A stretch of DNA of 10,925 nt from a bacterium. Its GTDB lineage: Bacteria > Patescibacteriota > Minisyncoccia > Phycocordibacterales > Zambryskibacteraceae. The DNA lies in the NCBI GenBank assembly GCA_030649135.1, contig JAUSGI010000001.1, positions 1 to 10,925 of the forward strand, written 5' to 3'. The position numbers were made by a program, and so were the translations under genes. The notes under the pieces were generated by a model, which saw nothing but the letters and a program-made list of their open reading frames with translations, was not told the DNA's origin and did no database searches. Positions 1-10,925 of this stretch are shown one piece after another. Every line of letters begins with the position of its first letter. Within the stretch, counting starts at the first letter, position 1.

Positions 1-84
1 TGTGAGCCTACGGTAAACTCAATGACAAGGACTAAGTCGTAACAAGGCACGGGTAGCGGAAGCTGCTCGTGGAGTAATTCAATT
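1..84 (+). rRNA. rrs: 16S rRNA, 3'-terminal fragment (the gene continues upstream of the window)
   Basis: Contains AAGTCGTAACAAGG, the complement of the universal 1492R site. Next comes CACGGGTAGC-GGAA-GCTGCTCGTG, a 10-bp helix with a GGAA tetraloop homologous to 16S helix 45, maintained by compensatory base changes. TGGA then follows, as in the canonical ...TGGATCACCTCCTTA terminus. Seen directly; the homology is by eye against the E. coli 3' end from memory. Confidence 0.75.
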
Positions 85-246: not shown

Positions 247-253
247 GTTGAAG

Positions 254-326
254 TGCGCGCACTAGGGGTCGAACCTAGGACCTTTCGAGTATCAGTCGAA
301 TGCTCTACCAACTGAGCTATGCGCGC
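254..326 (-). tRNA. tRNA-Ile (anticodon GAT), 73 nt, CCA not encoded
   Basis: The reverse complement folds into a canonical cloverleaf. The acceptor is GCGCGCA/TGCGCGC and the D arm is GCTC-AGTTGGTA-GAGC. The anticodon stem is TTCGA/TCGAA with loop CTGATAC (U33, GAU, A37). The T arm is CTAGG-TTCGACC-CCTAG, and the discriminator is A. Confidence 0.9.
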
Positions 327-352: not shown

Positions 353-380
353 TTGCTCTTTCACAATACGTTGGTATAAT
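353..380 (+). promoter_or_regulatory. Sigma70-type promoter with extended -10: TTGCTC -35, 16-nt spacer, TGgTATAAT
   Basis: TTGCTC is at 353-358 and TGGTATAAT at 372-380. The predicted TSS at about 387-388 falls 1-2 nt before ATG 389, giving a leaderless configuration. Confidence 0.5.
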
Positions 381-388
381 GTCCTTTA

Positions 389-646
389 ATGCCGAAAAAT
401 AAGATTATCATCGCCCTAGGATTACTGATAGCGCTTCTGCCGCTTCTCGGGTTTCCTCGTCTCTGGGAGTCATTTTTCCAAGTAGCGACCGGGCTATCCA
501 TAGTACTTATTCTTGTCTGGGCTAGTATAGATAAACGTCTTTCTCTTAAGGCTAAAGCTCAAAGGCGCCAAATTCATAAACGCCGACAAGCAGAGATAGA
601 AGCCAGCAGGGCGACAGAATCCATCGTTCAGGAAGAAATACTCTGA
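389..646 (+). CDS. Small membrane protein, 85 aa, with two predicted TM helices and a basic C-terminal tail
   Basis: Supplied ORF. Hydrophobic stretches IIIALGLLIALLPLLGF and VATGLSIVLILVWA are followed by a Lys/Arg-rich tail. The stop TGA at 644-646 lies 1 nt before the next ATG, so the genes are coupled. A promoter sits immediately upstream. Confidence 0.45.
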   Translation: MPKNKIIIALGLLIALLPLLGFPRLWESFFQVATGLSIVLILVWASIDKRLSLKAKAQRRQIHKRRQAEIEASRATESIVQEEIL

Positions 647-647
647 C

Positions 648-1814
648 ATGTCGTGGTTCAAGCGAAGTCTCGTATCGGTTACCGCGGCAAGTTTCGCCAT
701 TTTTCTTATCACTATTCTGTTGCCATCGTTTTTCGAATCTACTTATGATGCATCAACCTCTCTCACGAATCAGCCCCAAGTAGCATCTGTTCAAGCTGTG
801 GTAGTCAGTCACCAAGAGACCCCCGTACCTCTTAGGGCGCTTTACATGACTGCTTGCGTGGCCGGTACTCCGTCCTGGCGCGAGAATTTGAAAAAACTGG
901 TTGAGACAACCGAACTCAATGCCGTGGTGATAGATATCAAAGATTACACAGGAGTGGTCTCTTTTCCCAACGAATTTCCCAAGACGAATCTTGGCCACGG
1001 GTGTGTAGTTTCCGATATGTCTGAATTTATACAAACGCTTCATGATACTAAGATTTATGTCATTGGACGCATCTCCGTTTTCCAGGACCCTTCTTACACC
1101 AAACTTTTTCCCGCACTCGCAGTTAGAAAGAAAAGTGATGGTGAAGTCTGGAAGGATTATAAGGGTCTTTCTTTTATTGATGTCGGGGCGAAGCCTTATT
1201 GGGATTATATTGTGGCAATTTCGGAAGAGGCTTACGCACTCGGATTTGATGAGCTCAATTATGACTATGTTCGCTATCCTTCCGATGGCAATATAAAAGA
1301 CGCACTCTATACTTGGGCTGTCGGTACGACTACAAAGCCGGAGATGCTTGAAAGTTTTTTTGAATATCTGAAAGATAATTTGGAACATACGGGAGCCAAA
1401 CTTTCTGTCGACCTTTTCGGCATGACCACTACCGTGGAGAATGATATGAATATTGGACAAGTGCTTGAACTGGCCTTGCCTTATTTTGATTATGTCAGCC
1501 CGATGGTTTATCCTTCGCACTATCCTCCCACGTGGAACGGTTTTGCCAAACCTGCCGAGCACCCGTATGAAGTAGTGAAATTTGCTATGGCAAGAGGCAT
1601 GGAACGCGAACGAACTTTAAATACAGCAAACGGCCTAGCCACATCCACTCCGTCCAAACTTCGGCCTTGGTTACAGGACTTCAATCTCGGTGCGACTTAT
1701 GGACCGGACAAAGTCCGTGCCCAAATCCAAGCAACTTATGATGTCGGTCTCTCAAGTTGGATGATTTGGAACGCGGGGAATAAATATACCACTTCCGCGC
1801 TTTTACCGGAGTAG
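648..1814 (+). CDS. Membrane-anchored TIM-barrel putative glycoside hydrolase (DUF4015/GHL-like family), 388 aa
   Basis: Supplied ORF. An N-terminal signal-anchor helix is present. Motifs NAVVIDIKDYTG and ELNYDYVRYPSDG are typical of the putative-glycosyl-hydrolase DUF4015/GHL families (family assignment from memory, moderate). Codon usage matches the rest of the window. Confidence 0.8.
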   Translation: MSWFKRSLVSVTAASFAIFLITILLPSFFESTYDASTSLTNQPQVASVQAVVVSHQETPVPLRALYMTACVAGTPSWRENLKKLVETTELNAVVIDIKDYTGVVSFPNEFPKTNLGHGCVVSDMSEFIQTLHDTKIYVIGRISVFQDPSYTKLFPALAVRKKSDGEVWKDYKGLSFIDVGAKPYWDYIVAISEEAYALGFDELNYDYVRYPSDGNIKDALYTWAVGTTTKPEMLESFFEYLKDNLEHTGAKLSVDLFGMTTTVENDMNIGQVLELALPYFDYVSPMVYPSHYPPTWNGFAKPAEHPYEVVKFAMARGMERERTLNTANGLATSTPSKLRPWLQDFNLGATYGPDKVRAQIQATYDVGLSSWMIWNAGNKYTTSALLPE

Positions 1815-1815
1815 C

Positions 1816-1844
1816 TTGACAATACCTTCTCTAAGGTGTATAAT
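1816..1844 (+). promoter_or_regulatory. Perfect consensus sigma70 promoter: TTGACA, 17-nt spacer, TATAAT, with TG immediately 5' of the -10
   Basis: TTGACA is at 1816-1821 and TATAAT at 1839-1844. The predicted TSS is at about 1851. Confidence 0.7.
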
Positions 1845-1891
1845 ACTAAGAGACGTAGAATTGGCCGAATTTCCGCTAAGGAGAGCTTAAA

Positions 1892-2236
1892 ATGCTCGCT
1901 TCCACGAAACCCAACAAGGTAAAGCTGTACCGGCATCCCGGACAGGTAACCTCGAGTCTGACTGTGCGCCGAATTCTCTTCGACTTCGAGAAGATGGGGG
2001 TTAAGTGTCTGAGTATCGAGGACGACATCGTGAAGGGGTGGTGCCGCAATCCGGCGACCTACCCGCAGGAATTCCGCGACAAGGTCCTCTACCTCGGGGG
2101 GAAGACCGAGGTTCGAGGAGGCTGCGAGTCGGTACCCTGCCTGACGTGGTTTCCAGGCCTGGTGTCCGAGAAGTGGCTGCCGCTCGATACCAAGATCGGA
2201 GACACGTTCGTTGTCGCTCGACTGGCATCGTTCTAG
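1892..2236 (+). CDS. Hypothetical 114-aa protein encoded in a GC-rich, compositionally foreign island; Cys-containing, no recognisable family
   Basis: A strong SD, AAGGAGAG at 1878-1885, lies 8 nt before ATG 1892, which is the first in-frame start after a TAA. Codon third positions are about 77% G/C while the region is about 58% GC. That period-3 bias argues for coding rather than ncRNA. The stop TAG at 2234-2236 comes just before the terminator. Confidence 0.7.
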   Translation: MLASTKPNKVKLYRHPGQVTSSLTVRRILFDFEKMGVKCLSIEDDIVKGWCRNPATYPQEFRDKVLYLGGKTEVRGGCESVPCLTWFPGLVSEKWLPLDTKIGDTFVVARLASF

Positions 2237-2246
2237 TTCTGCAGTT

Positions 2247-2290
2247 CGCCCGGCACCCACGCAAGTGAGTGCCGGGCGGTTTTGTTTTTT
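2247..2290 (+). terminator. Strong rho-independent terminator
   Basis: CGCCCGGCAC (2247-2256) pairs perfectly with GTGCCGGGCG (2269-2278) as a 10-bp stem with a 12-nt loop. GTTTTGTTTTTT follows. Confidence 0.85.
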
Positions 2291-2292
2291 GT

Positions 2293-2300
2293 TGTATAAT
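2293..2300 (+). promoter_or_regulatory. TGTATAAT extended -10-like element 7 nt upstream of the ATPase ATG; a leaderless configuration, and a direct repeat of 1837-1844
   Basis: The 8-mer is identical to the one in the consensus promoter at 1837-1844. There is no good -35 upstream, because that region is the terminator stem. Confidence 0.4.
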
Positions 2301-2307
2301 TAGCGCG

Positions 2308-3978
2308 ATGGCAGATTCGCCAAAAGACCAAGTAATATATTTTGCCGAGACAGACTCGCGTAATAACCGCAAGAAGTTTGGAATTAAGACCGAAGATCGC
2401 TCCAAACATGTCTATGTCATAGGTAAGACCGGCATGGGCAAGTCCACGCTTCTTGAGAACATGGCTATTCAGGATATTCAAAATGGCAACGGTATTGCTT
2501 TCATCGACCCTCATGGCGGTACGGCAGAAAAACTTTTGGATTTTGTGCCCAAAGAGCGCATCAAGGATGTGTTGTATTTCGCTCCTTTTGATACTGAATA
2601 TCCGGTTGCCTTTAACGTCATGGAAGATGTCGGCGCCAACAAACGGCATCTAGTAGTCAGCGGTCTTATGAGCGCCTTCATGAAGCTCTTCGGGGAAGAG
2701 AGTTTTTCCGACAGAATGCAGTACATTCTCCAGAATACCATTCTTGCTCTTCTTGAGTATCCCGGTTCGACCATGCTCGGTATCAATAAAATGCTCGTTG
2801 ATAAGGAATATCGAAAAAATGTAATAGCGAATATTACTGATCCGTCGGTTAAGGCCTATTGGACACAGGAATATGCCGGTTACACAGAACGTTTCGCCGC
2901 AGAAGCTATACCCGCCATTCAGAACAAGATAGGCCAGTTCACATCAAATCCACTCATCAGAAATATCATTGGTCAAGAGAAATCCAGTTTCAATCTTCGA
3001 AAAATCATGGACGAGAAGAAGATTGTAATCGTCAATCTTTCCAAAGGCCGCGTAGGTGAAGACAATGCCCGCCTGCTTGGCTCGATGTTAATTACCAAAA
3101 TATATCTGGCGGCCATGTCACGCGCCGACGAGCGCGCCTCCTCGCTTGCCAAGCTCCCGCCATTTTTTCTGTACGTAGACGAATTCCAATCATTTGCCGA
3201 CAAGTCCTTCGCCGATATTTTGTCGGAAGCTCGCAAATATAAACTCAACCTGACCATGGCTCATATGTATATAGAACAGATGGAAGAAGAAGTGCGCGAT
3301 GCCGTCTTCGGCAACGTCGGCACCATGATAGTCTTCCGCGTGGGGGCTTACGACGCCGATGTATTGGAAAAGGAATTTGCCCCGGTTTTTATTGCAGAGG
3401 ATTTGGTCAACTTGGGATTGCGCCAAATCTACCTCAAACTGATGATAGACTCGGTGGCATCGCCGCCATTCTCCGCCACCACCATGCCGCCAATGCAGTC
3501 TTCAGAGGTTTCCCACACGGAGGAAATTATAGAATATTCTCGCAAGACCTTCGCCCAGCCAAGAAGTGAGGTTGAGAAACGTATCACCGACTGGCATGAA
3601 GCAGGCCGAGTGGCGGTAAAGACCGCTCCGCCCAGAGTGTTTAGCGCGCCTCCGATAGTTAAACCACAGGAGAAAAGACCGATAGAGAAAGTAATCTTAC
3701 CTGTCATGCCCGCGCATGCAGGGCAGGTAGGGAGTAAAATAGAACCCAAACCGCTTCCAAGCATTTCTCTCGAAACTCTGAAAAAGAGCACTGATAATCA
3801 GCGCAAGCCGGACGCCAAGCATGTCGCTGACCTGCGAGATGCGCTCAGAGCCATGACAGGGAATCAGCCGAAGCTAGAGACACCACCCCAGCCTCAAGTA
3901 CAACCGGTACACCCCCAGCCGACCATAAAGAAGGAACCTAGTCAGGAAGAGCTCAAAAAAATCCTCGATGTCCAATAA
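2308..3978 (+). CDS. TraG/VirD4/TrwB-like (type IV coupling-protein-like) P-loop ATPase with no N-terminal TM segment and a Pro/Gln-rich disordered C-terminal tail
   Basis: Walker A is VIGKTGMGKST, followed by IAFIDPHGG. Walker B is FFLYVDEFQSF, then NVGTMIVFRVG. This pattern is typical of the VirD4/TraG/DUF87 ATPase family. The start is taken as ATG 2308 (MADSPKDQ...) rather than the track's GTG 2269, which lies inside the terminator hairpin. The stop TAA at 3976-3978 overlaps the next gene. Confidence 0.8.
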   Translation: MADSPKDQVIYFAETDSRNNRKKFGIKTEDRSKHVYVIGKTGMGKSTLLENMAIQDIQNGNGIAFIDPHGGTAEKLLDFVPKERIKDVLYFAPFDTEYPVAFNVMEDVGANKRHLVVSGLMSAFMKLFGEESFSDRMQYILQNTILALLEYPGSTMLGINKMLVDKEYRKNVIANITDPSVKAYWTQEYAGYTERFAAEAIPAIQNKIGQFTSNPLIRNIIGQEKSSFNLRKIMDEKKIVIVNLSKGRVGEDNARLLGSMLITKIYLAAMSRADERASSLAKLPPFFLYVDEFQSFADKSFADILSEARKYKLNLTMAHMYIEQMEEEVRDAVFGNVGTMIVFRVGAYDADVLEKEFAPVFIAEDLVNLGLRQIYLKLMIDSVASPPFSATTMPPMQSSEVSHTEEIIEYSRKTFAQPRSEVEKRITDWHEAGRVAVKTAPPRVFSAPPIVKPQEKRPIEKVILPVMPAHAGQVGSKIEPKPLPSISLETLKKSTDNQRKPDAKHVADLRDALRAMTGNQPKLETPPQPQVQPVHPQPTIKKEPSQEELKKILDVQ

Positions 3979-7452: not shown

Positions 7453-7470
7453 CATTAGACAACAAATAAT

Positions 7471-10400
7471 TTGAAAGCCCAAAGATTGCTAGCAACTGGA
7501 TTGAGCGGTTTTATAATCGGAATTTTGGTTCTCAGTTTTTTAGGGGTATCTTTAAATAAGGTTTTTGCGGCGGGACCACCCTCAATTTTGAGCTATCAAG
7601 GTCGCCTTACTAATGCTTCAGGAAGTCTTCTTGGTGGTTCATCCGGAACTACTTTCTATTTCAAATTTTCAATATGGAGTGCTGCTAGTGGCGGGGCAAA
7701 GCTCTGGCCAGCATCCGACCCGACATCTTATGGCATTACGGTCAGAGAAGGCGTATTCAATGTAAATATTGGCGACACTACGAATGGTTATCCAGATACG
7801 CTTAATTATGATTTCTCGACGAGCACGAATGTATTTTTAAAGGTTGAAGTTTCTGATGATGATGTTGATTTTGAAACTCTCACTCCGCGACAGCAAATCA
7901 ATTCTGTCGCTTTTGCTCAAGTGGCGGGGGCGGTAGTTAGTGCATCTTCCACCATCGCCAATCTCACTGGTACTAACGCCACTACTACCAATGCTACTTC
8001 CACAAATTTCTTTAGTACTACAGCATCTTCAACAAATCTTTTTTCTGCCGCCATAACTTCAGGCTCTGCTATCTTTGCGAATCTTTTGGTAACCAGCTCA
8101 TCAACGCTCCAAAATTTCACTTTCACAAATGCTACAGGAACTTCCGCTACTACGACCAATCTCTTCTCCACCACTGCATCATCTTCCAACTTATTCACGG
8201 CATTATTCAACGGCGCTGGGTTAGCCACTTGCCAATCGAACAACGTCCTCACCTGGTCTGGTGGTATTTTCGGTTGCGAAACGGACGACAACACCTTCGC
8301 ATGGACTCCCATCTCTTACGGTACTCAAAACGTAGTTGCGACATCGACCGGCCTCTGGCTCAAAGGCTCACCTCTAGGCTTAGTTGCTTCTTCTACTTTC
8401 GCCACTTACTCCACCTCGACCAATGCCACCTCGACTAACTTTTTCTCTACTATCGCTTCGTCTACCAGTCTTTTCACATCAGCTTTGACCGTGAATGGCT
8501 TCGCCTTCACGGTCAATGGCGCTCCCACTTTGAACGACTGGTTCGACCAGTCCCTTAAGATCTCGGACGGGCCCGCTTTTTCCACTATCGATACTGGCCA
8601 TGGGGGTAATGAGCTCTATGCTATGGACCAAAACGTTCGGATCTCCGACGACGTAATCTTCGACGAACTCTTGCTAACCGGTTCTTCCACTTTGAGAAAT
8701 TTCACCTTCTTAAACGCCACCGGCACTTCCGCTACTACCACTAACTTCTTCGCCACGAATGCAAGTTCGACAAATCTCTTTACTACTCGACTTGGCATTG
8801 GCACTTCAAACCCCAGCAGTGCTCTAGAAGTTAATGGTGATATTCGTATCACCGCGAATTCCGGAGGGCGTCTCTACTTTAGTGATAGTTCCACACAAAA
8901 TAGTGCAATCGTGTCGGGAAGTGGTATTACAAGTTGGAGCGACTTGAATTTTCAAACCGGCGGAATCATGAACTTCCAAACCGGTAATGGTCTCGGCACC
9001 GCTACCACTACTCATATGGTTTTGGCTAATAACGGTAATATCGGGATTGGTACCACAACCCCAGGCACCCCGCTTGCTGTCACCGGTGCCGGAGTATTTA
9101 CTGGGTTAGTGACGGCACCCTTTTTCAATGCCACTTCTACAACCGATGTTTCTAATTTCCAACAAGTTCTCGTCCTTGCTTCCTCCACTCTTCAAAACTT
9201 TACTTTCTTAAACGCCACCGGCACTTCTGCTACTACCACTAGCTTCTTTGCTACTGTTTTAAATGCTACTACTGCTTCCACCACTAATCTTTTAGTAACC
9301 AGCTCATCAACGCTCCAAAATTTCACTTTCACAAATGCTACAGGAACTTCCGCCACCACCACCAATCTTTTCTCCACCACCGCATCATCTTCCAACTTAT
9401 TCACAGCATTATTCAACGGTGCCGGTCTTGCCACCTGCCAAACCAACAACGTCCTCACCTGGTCTGGTGGTATTTTCGGTTGCGAAACGGACGACAACAC
9501 CTTCGCATGGACTCCCACCTCTTACGGTACTCAAAACGTAGTTGCGACATCGACCGGTTTATGGCTCAAAGGTTCGCCTCTAGGCTTAATTGCCTCTTCT
9601 ACTTTCGCCACTTACTCCACCTCGACCAATGCTACTTCTACTAATTTCTTTGCCACCACGGCTTCATCCACTAGTCTTTTCGCAGCGGTCTTATCATCAG
9701 GCTCCGCCACCCTCGGCGATCTTTTACTTAACAGCTCATCGACACTCCAAAACTTTACTTTCCTAAATGCTACTGGCACTAACGCTACCACTACCAATAT
9801 TTTCTCCACCACTGCTTCTTCTACTAATCTTTTCACCGCTCTTTTCAATGGCGCTGGTCTTGCTACCTGCCAGACCAACAACATGCTCACTTGGGCTGGA
9901 GGAACATTCGGTTGCGAGGTTGATAATGATACCTTCGAATGGACTCCCACCGCTTGGGGCAACTCTACTTCCACCACTCTCGGTTTCTCGCAAGGTTTCC
10001 TCTCTACCGCTTCTTCTACCATAGACTCCAACTTGATTATCACTGGTAACTCCACTACTACCAACGCCACCACTACCAATATTTTCTCCACCACCGCATC
10101 ATCAACCGGTCTTTTTGCAGCGGTTTTATCATCAGGCTCCGCCACCTTCGGCGATCTTTTAATAAATAGCTCATCGACACTCCAAAACTTTACTTTCTTA
10201 AATGCTACTGGCACTAACGCTACCACTACCAATATTTTCTCCACCACCGCATCCACCACTAACTTCTTTGGTGCTGACTTAACCCCATGTACTTCAAATA
10301 ACGTCTTGACTTGGACAGGGGGGAAGTTTGGCTGTGAAGCAGATGACACCGGTAGTGCCACCTTCGGCAAAGACTGGAACATCTTTACCGTTGGCCGGCT

Positions 10401-10925
10401 TGCCCCGACTACCACAGTGGCTGTTTATGTGGGAGCAACCACCACAGCCTCCCTTACCAACAACTCGTACTTCCAAGTGAATGCGACTTCCACTACTGGA
10501 GACTTAATCGTGGCTTCTTCCTCCCAGGACTTCACTGGCAACTTCTTAAGATTCCTCAATGCCGCTGGTGCAACTCTCTTCTCTGTTGATAATACCGGTT
10601 CTTTGATTGCCGCTTCCACTACTTTCACCAACGCTACCTCGACCAATCTCTTCTCCACCACCGCATCTTCATCGAACCTCTACACCGCTCTCTTTAATGG
10701 CGCCGGTCTTGCCACTTGCCAAACCAACAACGTCCTCACCTGGGCCGGTGGAGAGTTCGGTTGCGAAGCGGATGATAGCGGCAGCGCTGGCTTCGGCAAA
10801 ACTTTTGAAATGTCCAACACCAACTTCCTCGCTCCCACCACCACGGTCTCGGTGATTATCGGCTCCACCACCACCCCGGACAAAAGCGCTTTATTCCAAG
10901 TGAACGCCACCGGCACCACAGGTAA
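7471..10925 (+). CDS. Giant secreted Thr/Ser/Asn-rich tandem-repeat surface protein, 3'-partial (at least 1,151 codons; continues beyond the window)
   Basis: I translated the frame by hand from TTG 7471 (TTG 7486 is an alternative start) to the window end and found no stop codon. The N-terminus, KAQRLLATGLSGFIIGILVLSFLGVSLNKVFA|AG, is a signal peptide. The body consists of repeated modules S-T-L-Q-N-F-T-F-x-N-A-T-G-T-x-A-T-T-T-N-x-F-S-T-T-A-S-S-x-N-L-F followed by A-L-F-N-G-A-G-L-A-T-C-Q-T-N-N-V-L-T-W-x-G-G-x-F-G-C-E-x-D-D. The ORF track omits it because no stop lies in the window and the start is TTG. Confidence 0.85.
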   Translation, partial: MKAQRLLATGLSGFIIGILVLSFLGVSLNKVFAAGPPSILSYQGRLTNASGSLLGGSSGTTFYFKFSIWSAASGGAKLWPASDPTSYGITVREGVFNVNIGDTTNGYPDTLNYDFSTSTNVFLKVEVSDDDVDFETLTPRQQINSVAFAQVAGAVVSASSTIANLTGTNATTTNATSTNFFSTTASSTNLFSAAITSGSAIFANLLVTSSSTLQNFTFTNATGTSATTTNLFSTTASSSNLFTALFNGAGLATCQSNNVLTWSGGIFGCETDDNTFAWTPISYGTQNVVATSTGLWLKGSPLGLVASSTFATYSTSTNATSTNFFSTIASSTSLFTSALTVNGFAFTVNGAPTLNDWFDQSLKISDGPAFSTIDTGHGGNELYAMDQNVRISDDVIFDELLLTGSSTLRNFTFLNATGTSATTTNFFATNASSTNLFTTRLGIGTSNPSSALEVNGDIRITANSGGRLYFSDSSTQNSAIVSGSGITSWSDLNFQTGGIMNFQTGNGLGTATTTHMVLANNGNIGIGTTTPGTPLAVTGAGVFTGLVTAPFFNATSTTDVSNFQQVLVLASSTLQNFTFLNATGTSATTTSFFATVLNATTASTTNLLVTSSSTLQNFTFTNATGTSATTTNLFSTTASSSNLFTALFNGAGLATCQTNNVLTWSGGIFGCETDDNTFAWTPTSYGTQNVVATSTGLWLKGSPLGLIASSTFATYSTSTNATSTNFFATTASSTSLFAAVLSSGSATLGDLLLNSSSTLQNFTFLNATGTNATTTNIFSTTASSTNLFTALFNGAGLATCQTNNMLTWAGGTFGCEVDNDTFEWTPTAWGNSTSTTLGFSQGFLSTASSTIDSNLIITGNSTTTNATTTNIFSTTASSTGLFAAVLSSGSATFGDLLINSSSTLQNFTFLNATGTNATTTNIFSTTASTTNFFGADLTPCTSNNVLTWTGGKFGCEADDTGSATFGKDWNIFTVGRLAPTTTVAVYVGATTTASLTNNSYFQVNATSTTGDLIVASSSQDFTGNFLRFLNAAGATLFSVDNTGSLIAASTTFTNATSTNLFSTTASSSNLYTALFNGAGLATCQTNNVLTWAGGEFGCEADDSGSAGFGKTFEMSNTNFLAPTTTVSVIIGSTTTPDKSALFQVNATGTTG
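8083..8476 (+). repeat. Intragenic direct repeat, copy A (about 390 nt), paired with 9289..9682
   Basis: The offset is exactly 1206 nt with no indels. Roughly nine in ten nucleotides are identical by eye across the compared core (8091-8230 vs 9297-9436). Nearly all differences are synonymous third positions, and the proteins differ at only about 3 of roughly 118 residues. Confidence 0.8.
9289..9682 (+). repeat. Intragenic direct repeat, copy B, paired with 8083..8476
   Basis: See copy A. Confidence 0.8.

What the first reader, a model, noticed from the sequence alone, without database searches (positions are those of the whole stretch)
1816..2310. The island sits precisely between a promoter and the ATG it probably once served, bounded by an 8-bp direct repeat TGTATAAT
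TGTATAAT occurs at 1837-1844, inside the consensus promoter's -10, and again at 2293-2300, 7 nt before the ATPase ATG. If the segment 1845-2292 is removed, TTGACA-N17-TATAAT-N7-ATG is restored. That is a perfect leaderless promoter for the ATPase/glycosyltransferase operon. The simplest reading is an insertion with an 8-bp target duplication that captured the strong promoter for the incoming gene. It left the downstream operon with only a -10 copy behind a strong terminator. I found no terminal inverted repeats and no transposase, so the mobilisation mechanism is unclear. The alternative is that the 8-mer recurs simply because it is this organism's preferred -10 element.
Basis: inference. Interest (0 to 1): 0.75.

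Follow-up and report, generated by a model that had tools for sequence, protein, structure and literature searches.

The report
Inserted lectin-fold gene; repeat is two promoters
A small self-contained gene has been inserted between two neighbouring genes of an uncultured Parcubacteria bacterium, but the 8-base "repeat" flanking it is two separate promoter boxes, not a transposon footprint, and the gene encodes a fixed relative of the hypervariable lectin-fold proteins that retroelements diversify in these bacteria.

Summary
TGTATAAT occurs at 1837-1844 and 2293-2300, and nowhere else in the window. The target-duplication and promoter-capture reading fails.

- **Empty sites.** The nearest relatives read DUF4015-stop, 12-14 nt, TGTATAAT-N7-ATG. 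They have the right-hand 8-mer but no TTGACA.
- **Right copy.** It is the ATPase gene's own ancestral leaderless -10. 67 of 84 Parcubacteria orthologues have a -10 box 4-12 nt before the ATG, and 18 have exactly TGTATAAT.
- **Left copy.** It belongs to the inserted gene's own promoter. That promoter travels with the gene in a second genome, where it reads TGTTATAAT with no second copy and a different downstream gene. Paralogues at unrelated loci have it too.

The insertion itself is real. About 470 nt (about 1815-2283) form a complete unit of promoter, leader, ribosome-binding site, 114-aa ORF and terminator.

The protein is predicted to have a C-type-lectin fold. It belongs to a Parcubacteria family whose members in two other genomes are genuine diversity-generating-retroelement (DGR) targets: every mismatch between their template repeat (TR) and variable repeat (VR) is at a TR adenine. 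The window copy has no template repeat or reverse transcriptase on its contig and is conserved rather than hypervariable, so it looks like a fixed orphan. How it was inserted is unknown.

The parts
648..1814 (+). DUF4015 (putative glycosyl hydrolase) gene, the left flank. The insertion starts immediately after its TAG stop codon.
   Evidence: Pfam PF13200, E 1.7e-90. It is 74-80% identical to the orthologues in L002, L003 and L006. It lies upstream of the ATPase gene in most of the 80 Parcubacteria loci.
1815..2283 (+). The inserted autonomous transcription unit as a whole. The left edge is sharp. The right edge falls somewhere in the T-rich tract 2279-2292.
   Evidence: Absent from L003/L004 and L006/L007. 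Deleting 1815-2283 gives a sequence collinear with those empty sites apart from a 3-5 nt indel. Homology with L002 runs from the DUF4015 gene through the promoter, ORF and terminator stem and then stops.
1816..1844 (+). The cassette's own sigma-70-type promoter: TTGACA (1816-1821), 17-nt spacer, TATAAT (1839-1844). The left TGTATAAT (1837-1844) is part of it.
   Evidence: 12/12 consensus match. Conserved with the gene in L002 (TTGACA-N18-TATAAT). L089 and L091 have TTGACA-N17-TATAAT, and L095 has TTGACT-N17-TACAAT. L093 has TTGATA-N17-TATAAC by my reading of the upstream sequence printed.
1845..1891 (+). 5' leader with the Shine-Dalgarno sequence AAGGAG at 1878-1883, 8 nt before the ATG.
   Evidence: Read directly from the sequence. 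L002 has AAGGAGG in the same place.
1892..2236 (+). 114-aa ORF. Predicted C-type-lectin-fold protein and a divergent, apparently non-diversifying member of a Parcubacteria family of DGR variable proteins.
2247..2292 (+). Terminator-like element: a hairpin with 14-nt arms (2247-2260 and 2265-2278) and a GCAA loop, then a T-rich tail. The last roughly 9 nt of the tail may be the ancestral T-run of the empty site.
   Evidence: The stem is conserved in L002. Other family members also have GC-rich hairpins after the stop codon.
2293..2300 (+). Right-hand TGTATAAT: the resident, ancestral -10 element of the leaderless ATPase/glycosyltransferase operon.
   Evidence: The same TGTATAAT-N7-ATG is present in the empty sites of L003 and L006. 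67 of 84 orthologues have a -10 scoring at least 5/6 that ends 4-12 nt before the ATG (mode 7). 18 have exactly TGTATAAT and only 2 have a Shine-Dalgarno-like motif.
2308..3978 (+). ATPase gene resembling a type IV secretion coupling protein (VirD4/TraG/TrwB-like). It is the right flank and the first gene of the glycosyltransferase operon.
   Evidence: Pfam DUF87 and TrwB_AAD_bind. More than 8000 homologues; named ones are Parcubacteria or Zambryskibacteria.

Best explanation
The two TGTATAAT copies are the -10 boxes of two independent promoters. They are not a target-site duplication.

The right copy (2293-2300) is the ancestral promoter of the ATPase/glycosyltransferase operon. It has a -10 but no clear -35, and it is predicted to start transcription at or next to the ATG, giving a leaderless mRNA.

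The left copy (1837-1844) sits inside the full consensus promoter of an inserted gene cassette. That cassette (about 1815-2283) landed between the DUF4015 stop codon and the T-run that precedes the ATPase -10. It is a complete expression unit: TTGACA-N17-TATAAT, a 47-nt leader, AAGGAG, a 114-aa ORF and a strong hairpin terminator. It therefore expresses itself and insulates the downstream operon, which keeps its own promoter just 3' of the terminator.

The encoded protein is a C-type-lectin-fold protein. It is homologous to a Parcubacteria family of variable (target) proteins of diversity-generating retroelements (DGRs). This copy lacks a template repeat (TR) and a reverse transcriptase on the contig, and its region equivalent to the variable repeat (VR) is under purifying selection. 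It most likely acts as a fixed-specificity ligand-binding protein.

Shown: the coordinates, the empty sites, promoter conservation, homology, and the A-only TR/VR mismatches in relatives. Inferred: promoter and terminator activity, leaderless initiation, the fold, ligand binding, and the absence of a DGR elsewhere in this genome. The insertion mechanism is unknown. The likeliest routes are illegitimate recombination, or recombinational exchange at an operon boundary that tolerates gene gain.
For: **Empty sites.**
- L003/L004 (ATPase 82% identical) and L006/L007 (75%) have orf85, DUF4015, then TAA + 12-14 nt + TGTATAAT + N7 + ATG of the ATPase gene.
- Their best -35 match is 2 of 6. Across 67 orthologues the -35 score is near background and none reaches 6/6.
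- Deleting 1815-2283 makes the window collinear with these sites.

**Resident leaderless promoter.**
- 67 of 84 orthologues have a -10 scoring at least 5/6 that ends 4-12 nt before the ATG. 18 have exactly TGTATAAT and 2 have a Shine-Dalgarno-like motif.
- Across 567 kb of related loci, 38 of 54 TGTATAAT copies lie within 60 nt upstream of an ATG-started ORF, and 32 of those lie 6-11 nt upstream.
- orf85 in the window is also preceded by TATAAT-N8-ATG.

**Cassette-borne promoter.**
- L002 has DUF4015-TAG-C-TTGACA-N18-TATAAT, AAGGAGG, the orthologous 114-aa ORF and the same hairpin. Homology then ends, with a convergent Mur ligase gene downstream and no second 8-mer.
- Paralogues in L089, L091 and L095, at other loci, have TTGAC(A/T)-N17-TA(T/C)AAT, long leaders and hairpin terminators.

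**The ORF is coding.**
- Third-position substitutions dominate.
- In the 40 VR-equivalent codons the counts are 4/3/13 by codon position, with 83% nucleotide identity.

**Family and fold.**
- establish the family.
- The AlphaFold2 model has pLDDT 80.8.

**The family is a DGR target family.**
- L089 and L091 have VR/TR pairs of 118 and 122 nt.
- 17 of 17 and 10 of 10 mismatches are at TR adenines.
- DGRs are known to be common in Patescibacteria and to target C-type-lectin folds (PMC11661182, PMC5758913).
Against: - No transcript data exist. Promoter, terminator and leaderless start are consensus-based inferences.
- Only one contig of this genome was available, so a remote TR and reverse transcriptase cannot be excluded.
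- Only two genomes carry this subfamily, so conservation is judged from a single pair.
- The window and L002 share the exact left junction (TAG-C-TTGACA), but the window's closest relative L003 is empty. The DUF4015 tree supports (L002,(window,L003)) at only 59%. One gain plus one clean loss cannot be separated from two gains.
- The uniformly high GC3 of the family (0.72-0.86) in hosts of 40-50% GC is unexplained.
Confidence: 0.8

Rival explanations
1. A mobile element (1845-2292) transposed into the -10/ATG interval of a TTGACA-N17-TATAAT-N7-ATG leaderless promoter. It duplicated the 8-bp target TGTATAAT and captured the strong promoter for its own gene.
For: The exact 8-mer flanks the ORF and occurs nowhere else in the window. 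Removing the island plus one repeat copy recreates a formally perfect promoter-ATG arrangement. The segment is compositionally foreign and is absent from relatives.
Against: - Real empty sites lack TTGACA and the 23 nt between the DUF4015 stop codon and the left 8-mer.
- L002 carries the island with the same promoter. There the -10 reads TGTTATAAT, there is no downstream 8-mer and no ATPase gene.
- Family members at unrelated loci carry the same kind of promoter.
- There are no terminal inverted repeats, no transposase, and no further copies in the viral or metagenome collections.
- TGTATAAT-N7-ATG is conserved upstream of ATPase orthologues that have no island.
Confidence: 0.03
2. The cassette is ancestral to the clade of the window, L003 and L002 (a single gain). 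It was later lost cleanly from L003, for example by recombination with an empty allele. L002 then suffered a rearrangement downstream. On this view the window did not experience a recent insertion.
For: - The left junction is identical in the window and L002: TAG-C-TTGACA, against TAA in all the empty relatives.
- Cassette divergence (75% nucleotide, 70% amino acid) is about the same as that of the flanking DUF4015 gene (72% nucleotide, 74% amino acid).
- The neighbour-joining tree places L002 as sister to (window, L003).
Against: - That node has only 59% bootstrap support.
- The L003 intergenic region is clearly homologous to that of the outgroup L006 (TAAATCYGTTTTT..ATTGTATAAT), so a loss would have had to restore the ancestral sequence exactly.
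- Short gaps are the rule in distant outgroups.
Confidence: 0.3
3. The ORF is an active remote DGR target. A TR and reverse transcriptase elsewhere in the genome diversify its C-terminus, and the GC-rich hairpin after the stop codon is the target-recognition cruciform.
For: - The ORF is homologous to verified DGR targets.
- A GC-rich hairpin with a 4-nt loop begins 10 nt after the stop codon. That lies within the 4-34 bp range reported for DGR hairpins (PMC3240598).
- Non-adjacent and remote targets are known (PMC5758913).
- L089 and L091 themselves show no reverse transcriptase gene within 4 kb.
Against: - The VR-equivalent 40 codons are 83% identical to L002, and the changes are mostly at third positions.
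- There is no TR-like repeat in the window or in L002.
- There is no nucleotide similarity to the L089 or L091 TRs.
- The C-terminus lacks the family's W.WL...W....PALL motif.
- The loop is GCAA, not the GRNA consensus (PMC3240598).
Confidence: 0.08
4. Assembly chimera: the GC-rich segment was stitched into the contig from another organism.
For: There is an abrupt rise in GC within a metagenome-assembled contig.
Against: The same junctions appear in an independent Logan assembly of the run (L001). The DUF4015-cassette junction recurs in a different sample and assembly (L002). The family shows the same GC3 excess in every genome examined.
Confidence: 0.01

Closest known systems
DGR variable (target) proteins with a C-type lectin fold: Bordetella phage BPP-1 Mtd, Treponema denticola TvpA, and the targets catalogued in CPR/Patescibacteria
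   Different: There is no TR, reverse transcriptase or accessory gene on the contig. The C-terminal region is conserved between two genomes rather than hypervariable and lacks the family's C-terminal motif. The hairpin loop is GCAA rather than GRNA. It works like a lectin-fold binding module, but membership as an active DGR target is not shown.
Phage 'morons': autonomous promoter-gene-terminator units inserted between two genes that are adjacent in related genomes (definition from my own knowledge of Hendrix, Juhala and colleagues, 2000)
   Same: The cassette has its own consensus promoter and its own intrinsic terminator. It sits between two genes that abut in relatives, and its base composition is atypical.
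   Different: The setting is a bacterial chromosome next to an rRNA/tRNA-Ile locus and housekeeping genes, not a phage. There are no hits in the viral collection or in PHROGs.
Leaderless mRNA promoters with a -10 box placed 6-9 nt before the start codon, some of extended -10 (TGn) type
   Same: The right-hand TGTATAAT-N7-ATG has no Shine-Dalgarno sequence, and the arrangement is conserved across orthologues.
   Different: In TGTATAAT the TG abuts the hexamer, rather than being separated from it by one base as in the canonical TGnTATAAT. 25 orthologues do have the canonical TGn form. No transcription-start mapping is available.
IS or MITE insertions with 8-bp target-site duplications
   Same: An exact 8-bp direct repeat brackets a roughly 450-nt segment that is absent from relatives.
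   Different: There are no terminal inverted repeats, no transposase and no multicopy distribution. The repeat copies are accounted for as promoter elements, and the left copy is internal to the inserted unit.

Membership tests
Transposable-element insertion with 8-bp target-site duplication | The empty site contains one copy of the duplicated target. The sequence outside the two copies is contiguous in the empty site. | tested here: not met
   The empty sites in L003 and L006 have a single TGTATAAT. They lack the 23 nt (CTTGACA...AAGG) that lie between the DUF4015 stop codon and the left copy.
Transposable-element insertion with 8-bp target-site duplication | Terminal inverted repeats and/or an element-encoded transposase or recombinase | tested here: not met
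   There are no terminal inverted repeats in 1760-2340; the only strong inverted repeat is the terminator. The single ORF has no Pfam, PHROG or PADLOC match.
Transposable-element insertion with 8-bp target-site duplication | Other copies of the element at other sites, each with its own duplication | tested here: not met
   There is only one other copy in 5.8 billion proteins. It sits at the same left junction and has no flanking repeat. None was found in the metagenome or viral scans.
DGR variable (target) gene | C-type-lectin (or Ig) fold carrying the variable region at the C-terminus | tested here: met
DGR variable (target) gene | A cognate template repeat whose differences from the VR are confined to TR adenines | tested here: not met
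   There is no repeat of the ORF's 3' end in the window or in L002, and no similarity to the L089 or L091 TRs. The feature is met for the family members L089 (17/17) and L091 (10/10). The rest of this genome could not be examined.
DGR variable (target) gene | A DGR reverse transcriptase in the genome | not testable with these tools
   None of the seven window ORFs scanned against Pfam has a reverse transcriptase domain. The remaining long reading frame is a repetitive T/S/N/A-rich protein that was not scanned. Only this 10.9-kb contig of the genome was available.
DGR variable (target) gene | Hypervariability of VR codons between strains or orthologues | tested here: not met
   In the 40 VR-equivalent codons, the window and L002 are 83% identical at nucleotide level. 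Substitutions by codon position are 4/3/13, and 34 of 40 residues are identical.
DGR variable (target) gene | A GC-rich hairpin with a 4-nt GRNA loop 4-34 bp downstream of the VR (PMC3240598) | tested here: inconclusive
   A 14-nt-arm GC-rich hairpin with a 4-nt loop begins 10 nt after the stop codon. Its loop is GCAA and it is followed by a T-tract, so it is equally well an ordinary intrinsic terminator.
Moron-like autonomous transcription unit | Own promoter and own terminator, inserted between genes that are adjacent in relatives, with deviant base composition | tested here: met
   Promoter and terminator are sequence-level matches only.
Moron-like autonomous transcription unit | Resides in a phage or prophage genome | tested here: not met
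   The neighbours are the 16S 3' end, tRNA-Ile, DUF4015, the ATPase gene and glycosyltransferase genes. There are no viral hits.
Leaderless promoter with a -10 and no clear -35 (ATPase operon) | A -10 hexamer 5-10 nt upstream of the start codon, no Shine-Dalgarno sequence, conserved in orthologues | tested here: met
   67 of 84 orthologues have it, with a modal spacing of 7 nt. Only 2 have a Shine-Dalgarno-like motif, and -35 scores are near background.
Leaderless promoter with a -10 and no clear -35 (ATPase operon) | A transcription start mapped at or next to the start codon | not testable with these tools
   No transcriptome data are available for this uncultured organism.

The most novel reading that the evidence does not exclude
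The promoter, lectin-fold gene and terminator form a discrete cassette that moves as a unit between operon boundaries in Parcubacteria genomes. It would have entered the identical DUF4015/ATPase junction independently in two lineages by an unrecognised mechanism that uses no transposase and leaves no duplication. That mechanism might be linked to the DGR machinery with which its paralogues are associated. The family's constant GC3 excess in hosts of different GC content would then be the signature of that mobility.
Probability: 0.1. Interest if true: 0.7.

Novelty: new member of a known kind. Interest (0 to 1): 0.35.

Why it matters
The specific claim, a transposition footprint with promoter capture, is wrong, and that is a useful caution. 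In lineages that use leaderless promoters consisting mainly of a -10 box, identical -10 octamers recur next to start codons and can mimic target-site duplications.

Three positive results remain.
- The ATPase gene resembling a type IV secretion coupling protein has a conserved leaderless promoter across about 80 Parcubacteria species.
- The DUF4015/ATPase boundary repeatedly gains small genes. These include pilin-like genes, a lectin-fold gene and others.
- An unannotated Parcubacteria small-protein family turns out to be a DGR target family. The window carries a fixed, non-diversifying offshoot of it.

Fixed orphans of hypervariable proteins may show how DGR-selected binding specificities become hard-wired in ultra-small symbionts.

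Tried and rejected
- **Known RNAs.** An Rfam scan of the window found only tRNA-Ile. The island is not a known RNA, and the codon-position pattern shows it is coding.
- **Protein libraries.** Pfam, PHROGs, PADLOC and PDB sequence searches gave nothing significant for the 114-aa protein or its relatives.
- **More copies.** Searches for further copies of this subfamily found none: the metagenome scan with two peptide patterns, a degenerate WFPGLVSEKWLPLD pattern, and the viral contigs.
- **Co-transfer of the flank.** I looked for a recombination tract that would show the cassette arrived together with the 3' end of DUF4015. Sliding-window identity and informative-site counts show no switch towards L002 near the junction.
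- **Gain versus loss.** A DUF4015 neighbour-joining tree left the key node at 59% bootstrap, so the question is unresolved.
- **afdb50 fold library.** It was unavailable.
- **Paul et al. 2017.** The paper could not be opened. It is cited only through PMC11661182.
- **DGR cruciform.** I considered reading the hairpin as a DGR cruciform. I rejected this as a positive claim because the loop is GCAA and a T-tract follows.
Full report
**1. The observation**

The window is a complete 10,925-bp contig of an uncultured Parcubacteria-group (CPR) bacterium.
- TTGACA is at 1816-1821, followed by a 17-nt spacer and TATAAT at 1839-1844.
- TGTATAAT occurs at 1837-1844 and 2293-2300, and the ATPase ATG is at 2308.
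- These are the only two copies of the 8-mer on either strand. 0.34 are expected, and 6 of 200 shuffles give two or more.
- The 1816-1844 site is the only 12/12 sigma-70 match in the window.
- Between the two copies lie AAGGAG (1878-1883) and a 114-codon ORF (1892-2236) with GC3 of 0.77, against 0.40-0.54 in its neighbours.
- A hairpin with 14-nt arms follows, with a GCAA loop and a T-tract: -31.5 kcal/mol, z = -4.3.
- There are no terminal inverted repeats.
- One slip in the finding: removing 1845-2292 alone leaves the two octamers in tandem. One copy must also be removed to recreate TTGACA-N17-TATAAT-N7-ATG.

**2. Is it an insertion? Yes**

The ATPase gene resembles a type IV secretion coupling protein (Pfam DUF87 and TrwB). 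It is widespread in Parcubacteria.
- In its closest relatives the gene order is orf85, DUF4015, ATPase, glycosyltransferase. Only 27 nt (L003/L004, ATPase 82% identical) or 29 nt (L006/L007, 75%) separate the DUF4015 stop codon from the ATPase ATG.
- The window has 493 nt in that position.
- Across 80 species fetched from the genome collection, DUF4015 is the usual upstream neighbour.
- Many distant outgroups have gaps of 18-36 nt, so the compact junction is ancestral.
- Other lineages have filled the same junction with unrelated small genes. L028, L033, L035 and L044 have pilin-like genes. L010, L022, L024, L046 and L056 have various small ORFs. L005 has three genes.

**3. Is TGTATAAT a target-site duplication? 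No**

*The empty sites*
- They read L003 ...CCGGAATAA-ATCCGTTTTTAT-TGTATAAT-TAGCGAA-ATG and L006 ...CCGGAATAA-ATCTGTTTTTTTAT-TGTATAAT-GAGTCAA-ATG.
- They contain the right-hand octamer at the same 7-nt distance from the ATG, but no TTGACA. The best -35 match is 2 of 6.
- A construct that deletes 1815-2283 aligns collinearly with these sites, with a 3-5 nt indel.

*The right-hand copy is a resident promoter*
- Among 84 non-redundant orthologues, 67 have a -10 scoring at least 5/6 that ends 4-12 nt before the ATG, with a mode of 7 nt.
- 18 have exactly TGTATAAT. 25 have the canonical TGn extended -10 form. Only 2 have a Shine-Dalgarno-like motif.
- Their -35 scores are near background, and none reaches 6/6.
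- Across 567 kb of related loci, 38 of 54 TGTATAAT copies lie within 60 nt upstream of an ATG-started ORF, and 32 of those lie 6-11 nt upstream.
- The window's orf85 is likewise preceded by TATAAT-N8-ATG.
- The right copy is therefore the ancestral, probably leaderless, promoter of the ATPase operon.

**4. The left copy belongs to the cassette**

- The only close homologue of the 114-aa protein among 5.8 billion proteins is in another Parcubacteria MAG (L002).
- There the gene again follows DUF4015 directly, as TAG-C-TTGACA-N18-TATAAT, AAGGAGG, a 114-codon ORF starting at GTG, and the same hairpin.
- Its -10 context is TGTTATAAT. There is no second octamer. Homology with the window ends at the terminator stem, and the downstream gene is a convergent Mur ligase gene.
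- Homology therefore runs straight through the proposed left junction at 1844/1845.
- Distant paralogues at unrelated loci carry the same kind of promoter. L089 and L091 have TTGACA-N17-TATAAT, and L091 even reads TGTATAAT. L095 has TTGACT-N17-TACAAT. L093 has TTGATA-N17-TATAAC by my reading of the upstream sequence printed.
- All four also have long leaders and GC-rich hairpin terminators.
- The promoter is a property of the gene family. It was not captured.

**5. What the cassette encodes**

*It is coding.* Substitutions between the window and L002 are 23/16/48 by codon position.

*It belongs to a family.*
- A full HMMER scan of 1.8 billion representative proteins found 47 distant relatives.
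- A profile search found 102 clusters. Nearly all of those that carry a name are from Parcubacteria or Patescibacteria, and all are annotated as hypothetical.
- The shared core is FELYxHPxQ..G..LExHL.ETGLIxRxLSLEDExVKGWxxNPxTYPEEFKxKxVxLWKS...R.VACLxW..GRVxVxWxWL...W....PALL.
- The family has no Pfam, PHROG, PADLOC or PDB sequence match.

*Predicted fold.*
- An AlphaFold2 model built with this alignment has pLDDT 80.8 and pTM 0.70.
- Foldseek is only marginal (E 0.2).

*The family is a DGR target family.*
- In L089 and L091 the last 118 and 122 nt of the gene are repeated about 500 nt downstream.
- All 17 and all 10 mismatches lie at adenines of the downstream copy. Adenine-only TR/VR mismatch is the hallmark of diversity-generating retroelements.
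- DGRs are known to be frequent in Patescibacteria and to target C-type-lectin folds (PMC11661182, PMC5758913).
- The window protein is 36% identical over 109 residues to the L089 target, E 3e-19.

**6. The window copy looks fixed**

- There is no TR-like repeat in the window or in L002.
- There is no similarity to the L089 or L091 TRs.
- None of the seven window ORFs scanned against Pfam is a reverse transcriptase. The remaining long frame is a repetitive surface-type protein that was not scanned.
- The VR-equivalent 40 codons are 83% identical between the window and L002. Changes are 4/3/13 by codon position, and the stretch WFPGLVSEKWLPLD.KIGDTF is almost invariant.
- The C-terminus also lacks the family's W.WL...W....PALL motif.
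- I therefore read it as a non-diversifying offshoot of a DGR target family. A remote TR and reverse transcriptase elsewhere in the genome cannot be excluded from one contig.
- The hairpin after the stop codon could in principle be a DGR cruciform. Its loop is GCAA rather than GRNA (PMC3240598) and a T-tract follows, so an ordinary terminator is the simpler reading.

**7. History and mechanism**

- By nucleotide identity over orf85-DUF4015, L003 (0.80) and L006 (0.77) are closer to the window than L002 is (0.72).
- A neighbour-joining tree gives (window, L003) at 92% bootstrap and (L002,(window,L003)) at only 59%.
- The shared TAG-C-TTGACA junction, and a cassette divergence similar to that of the flank, favour a single old gain followed by loss in L003.
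- The ancestral-looking L003 spacer favours independent gains, or allele replacement by recombination.
- No recombination tract is visible at the 3' end of DUF4015.
- The mobilisation mechanism remains unknown. What can be said is that it left no duplication and brought no recombinase. It used an operon boundary that tolerates gene gain.
- Functionally, the cassette's terminator insulates the ATPase operon, whose own -10 lies immediately downstream.

**8. Verdict**

- The insertion is confirmed, with revised borders of about 1815-2283.
- The cargo is a new, apparently fixed member of a known kind of protein, the lectin-fold DGR variable proteins. It is packaged like a phage moron but sits in a chromosome.

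Noticed in passing
L089 4331-4932 and L091 4363-5003: These loci have genuine DGR VR/TR pairs with A-only mismatches, but no reverse transcriptase gene within 4 kb on either side. The flanking genes are an RNase III gene and an SMC-like gene in L089, and an aminoacyl-tRNA synthetase gene and a peptidase M16 gene in L091. The TR plus about 30 nt downstream (CTCTTCATTTCTCT...) is 83% identical between the two genomes. This may be a DGR RNA with a remote reverse transcriptase.
   Followed up: partly
L089 4510-4595 and L091 4569-4659: A conserved non-coding block (about 74% identity, containing CGGCTTCCGGC...CCAGTATCCAT) lies between the target gene's terminator and the TR. It has no Rfam match at the gathering threshold.
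   Followed up: partly
window 1892-2236; L089, L091, L093 and L095 at 4001 onwards: Every examined member of the family has GC3 of 0.72-0.86. Neighbouring genes have 0.3-0.7, in genomes of 40-50% GC. Adenine avoidance in the VR cannot explain this for the whole gene. It remains unexplained.
   Followed up: partly
window 253-326 (and 1-70): tRNA-Ile(GAT) is on the minus strand here. It is on the plus strand, between the 16S gene and orf85, in L002, L003, L005 and L006. Window 1-70 looks like the 3' end of 16S rRNA. This is either a small inversion or an assembly artefact at the contig end.
   Followed up: no
window 375-391: orf85, the first gene of the orf85-DUF4015 pair, is preceded by TATAAT-N8-ATG with no Shine-Dalgarno sequence. 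This is a second apparently leaderless promoter in the window.
   Followed up: partly
L028, L033, L035 and L044 (upstream of the ATPase ATG); L005 3505-6000: In other lineages the same DUF4015/ATPase junction holds type IV pilin-like genes (N-terminus KGFTLIELLVVIAIIGILSS) or other small ORFs. In L005 it holds three genes (AAA_33, His_Phos_1 and a lactonase-like gene). The junction is a recurrent gene-gain spot.
   Followed up: partly
window 7459-10925 (+): An open reading frame of more than 1155 codons runs off the contig end. It encodes a repetitive T/S/N/A-rich protein with a hydrophobic N-terminal segment and repeated units of about 71-300 nt. It is probably a large surface protein.
   Followed up: no
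L093 4001-4360 and L006: The MAG with an empty DUF4015/ATPase site (GCA_030647535.1) comes from the same sample as the window. It carries a family member elsewhere, between a PaaX-like gene and an SMC-like gene, with an RNase III gene further upstream. L089 has its member between the same RNase III and SMC-like genes. That may be the family's usual location.
   Followed up: partly
L002 1-588; L006 340-948: LAGLIDADG homing-endonuclease ORFs lie next to or within the rRNA genes upstream of the syntenic block. This fits the intron-bearing rRNA genes known in CPR bacteria.
   Followed up: no
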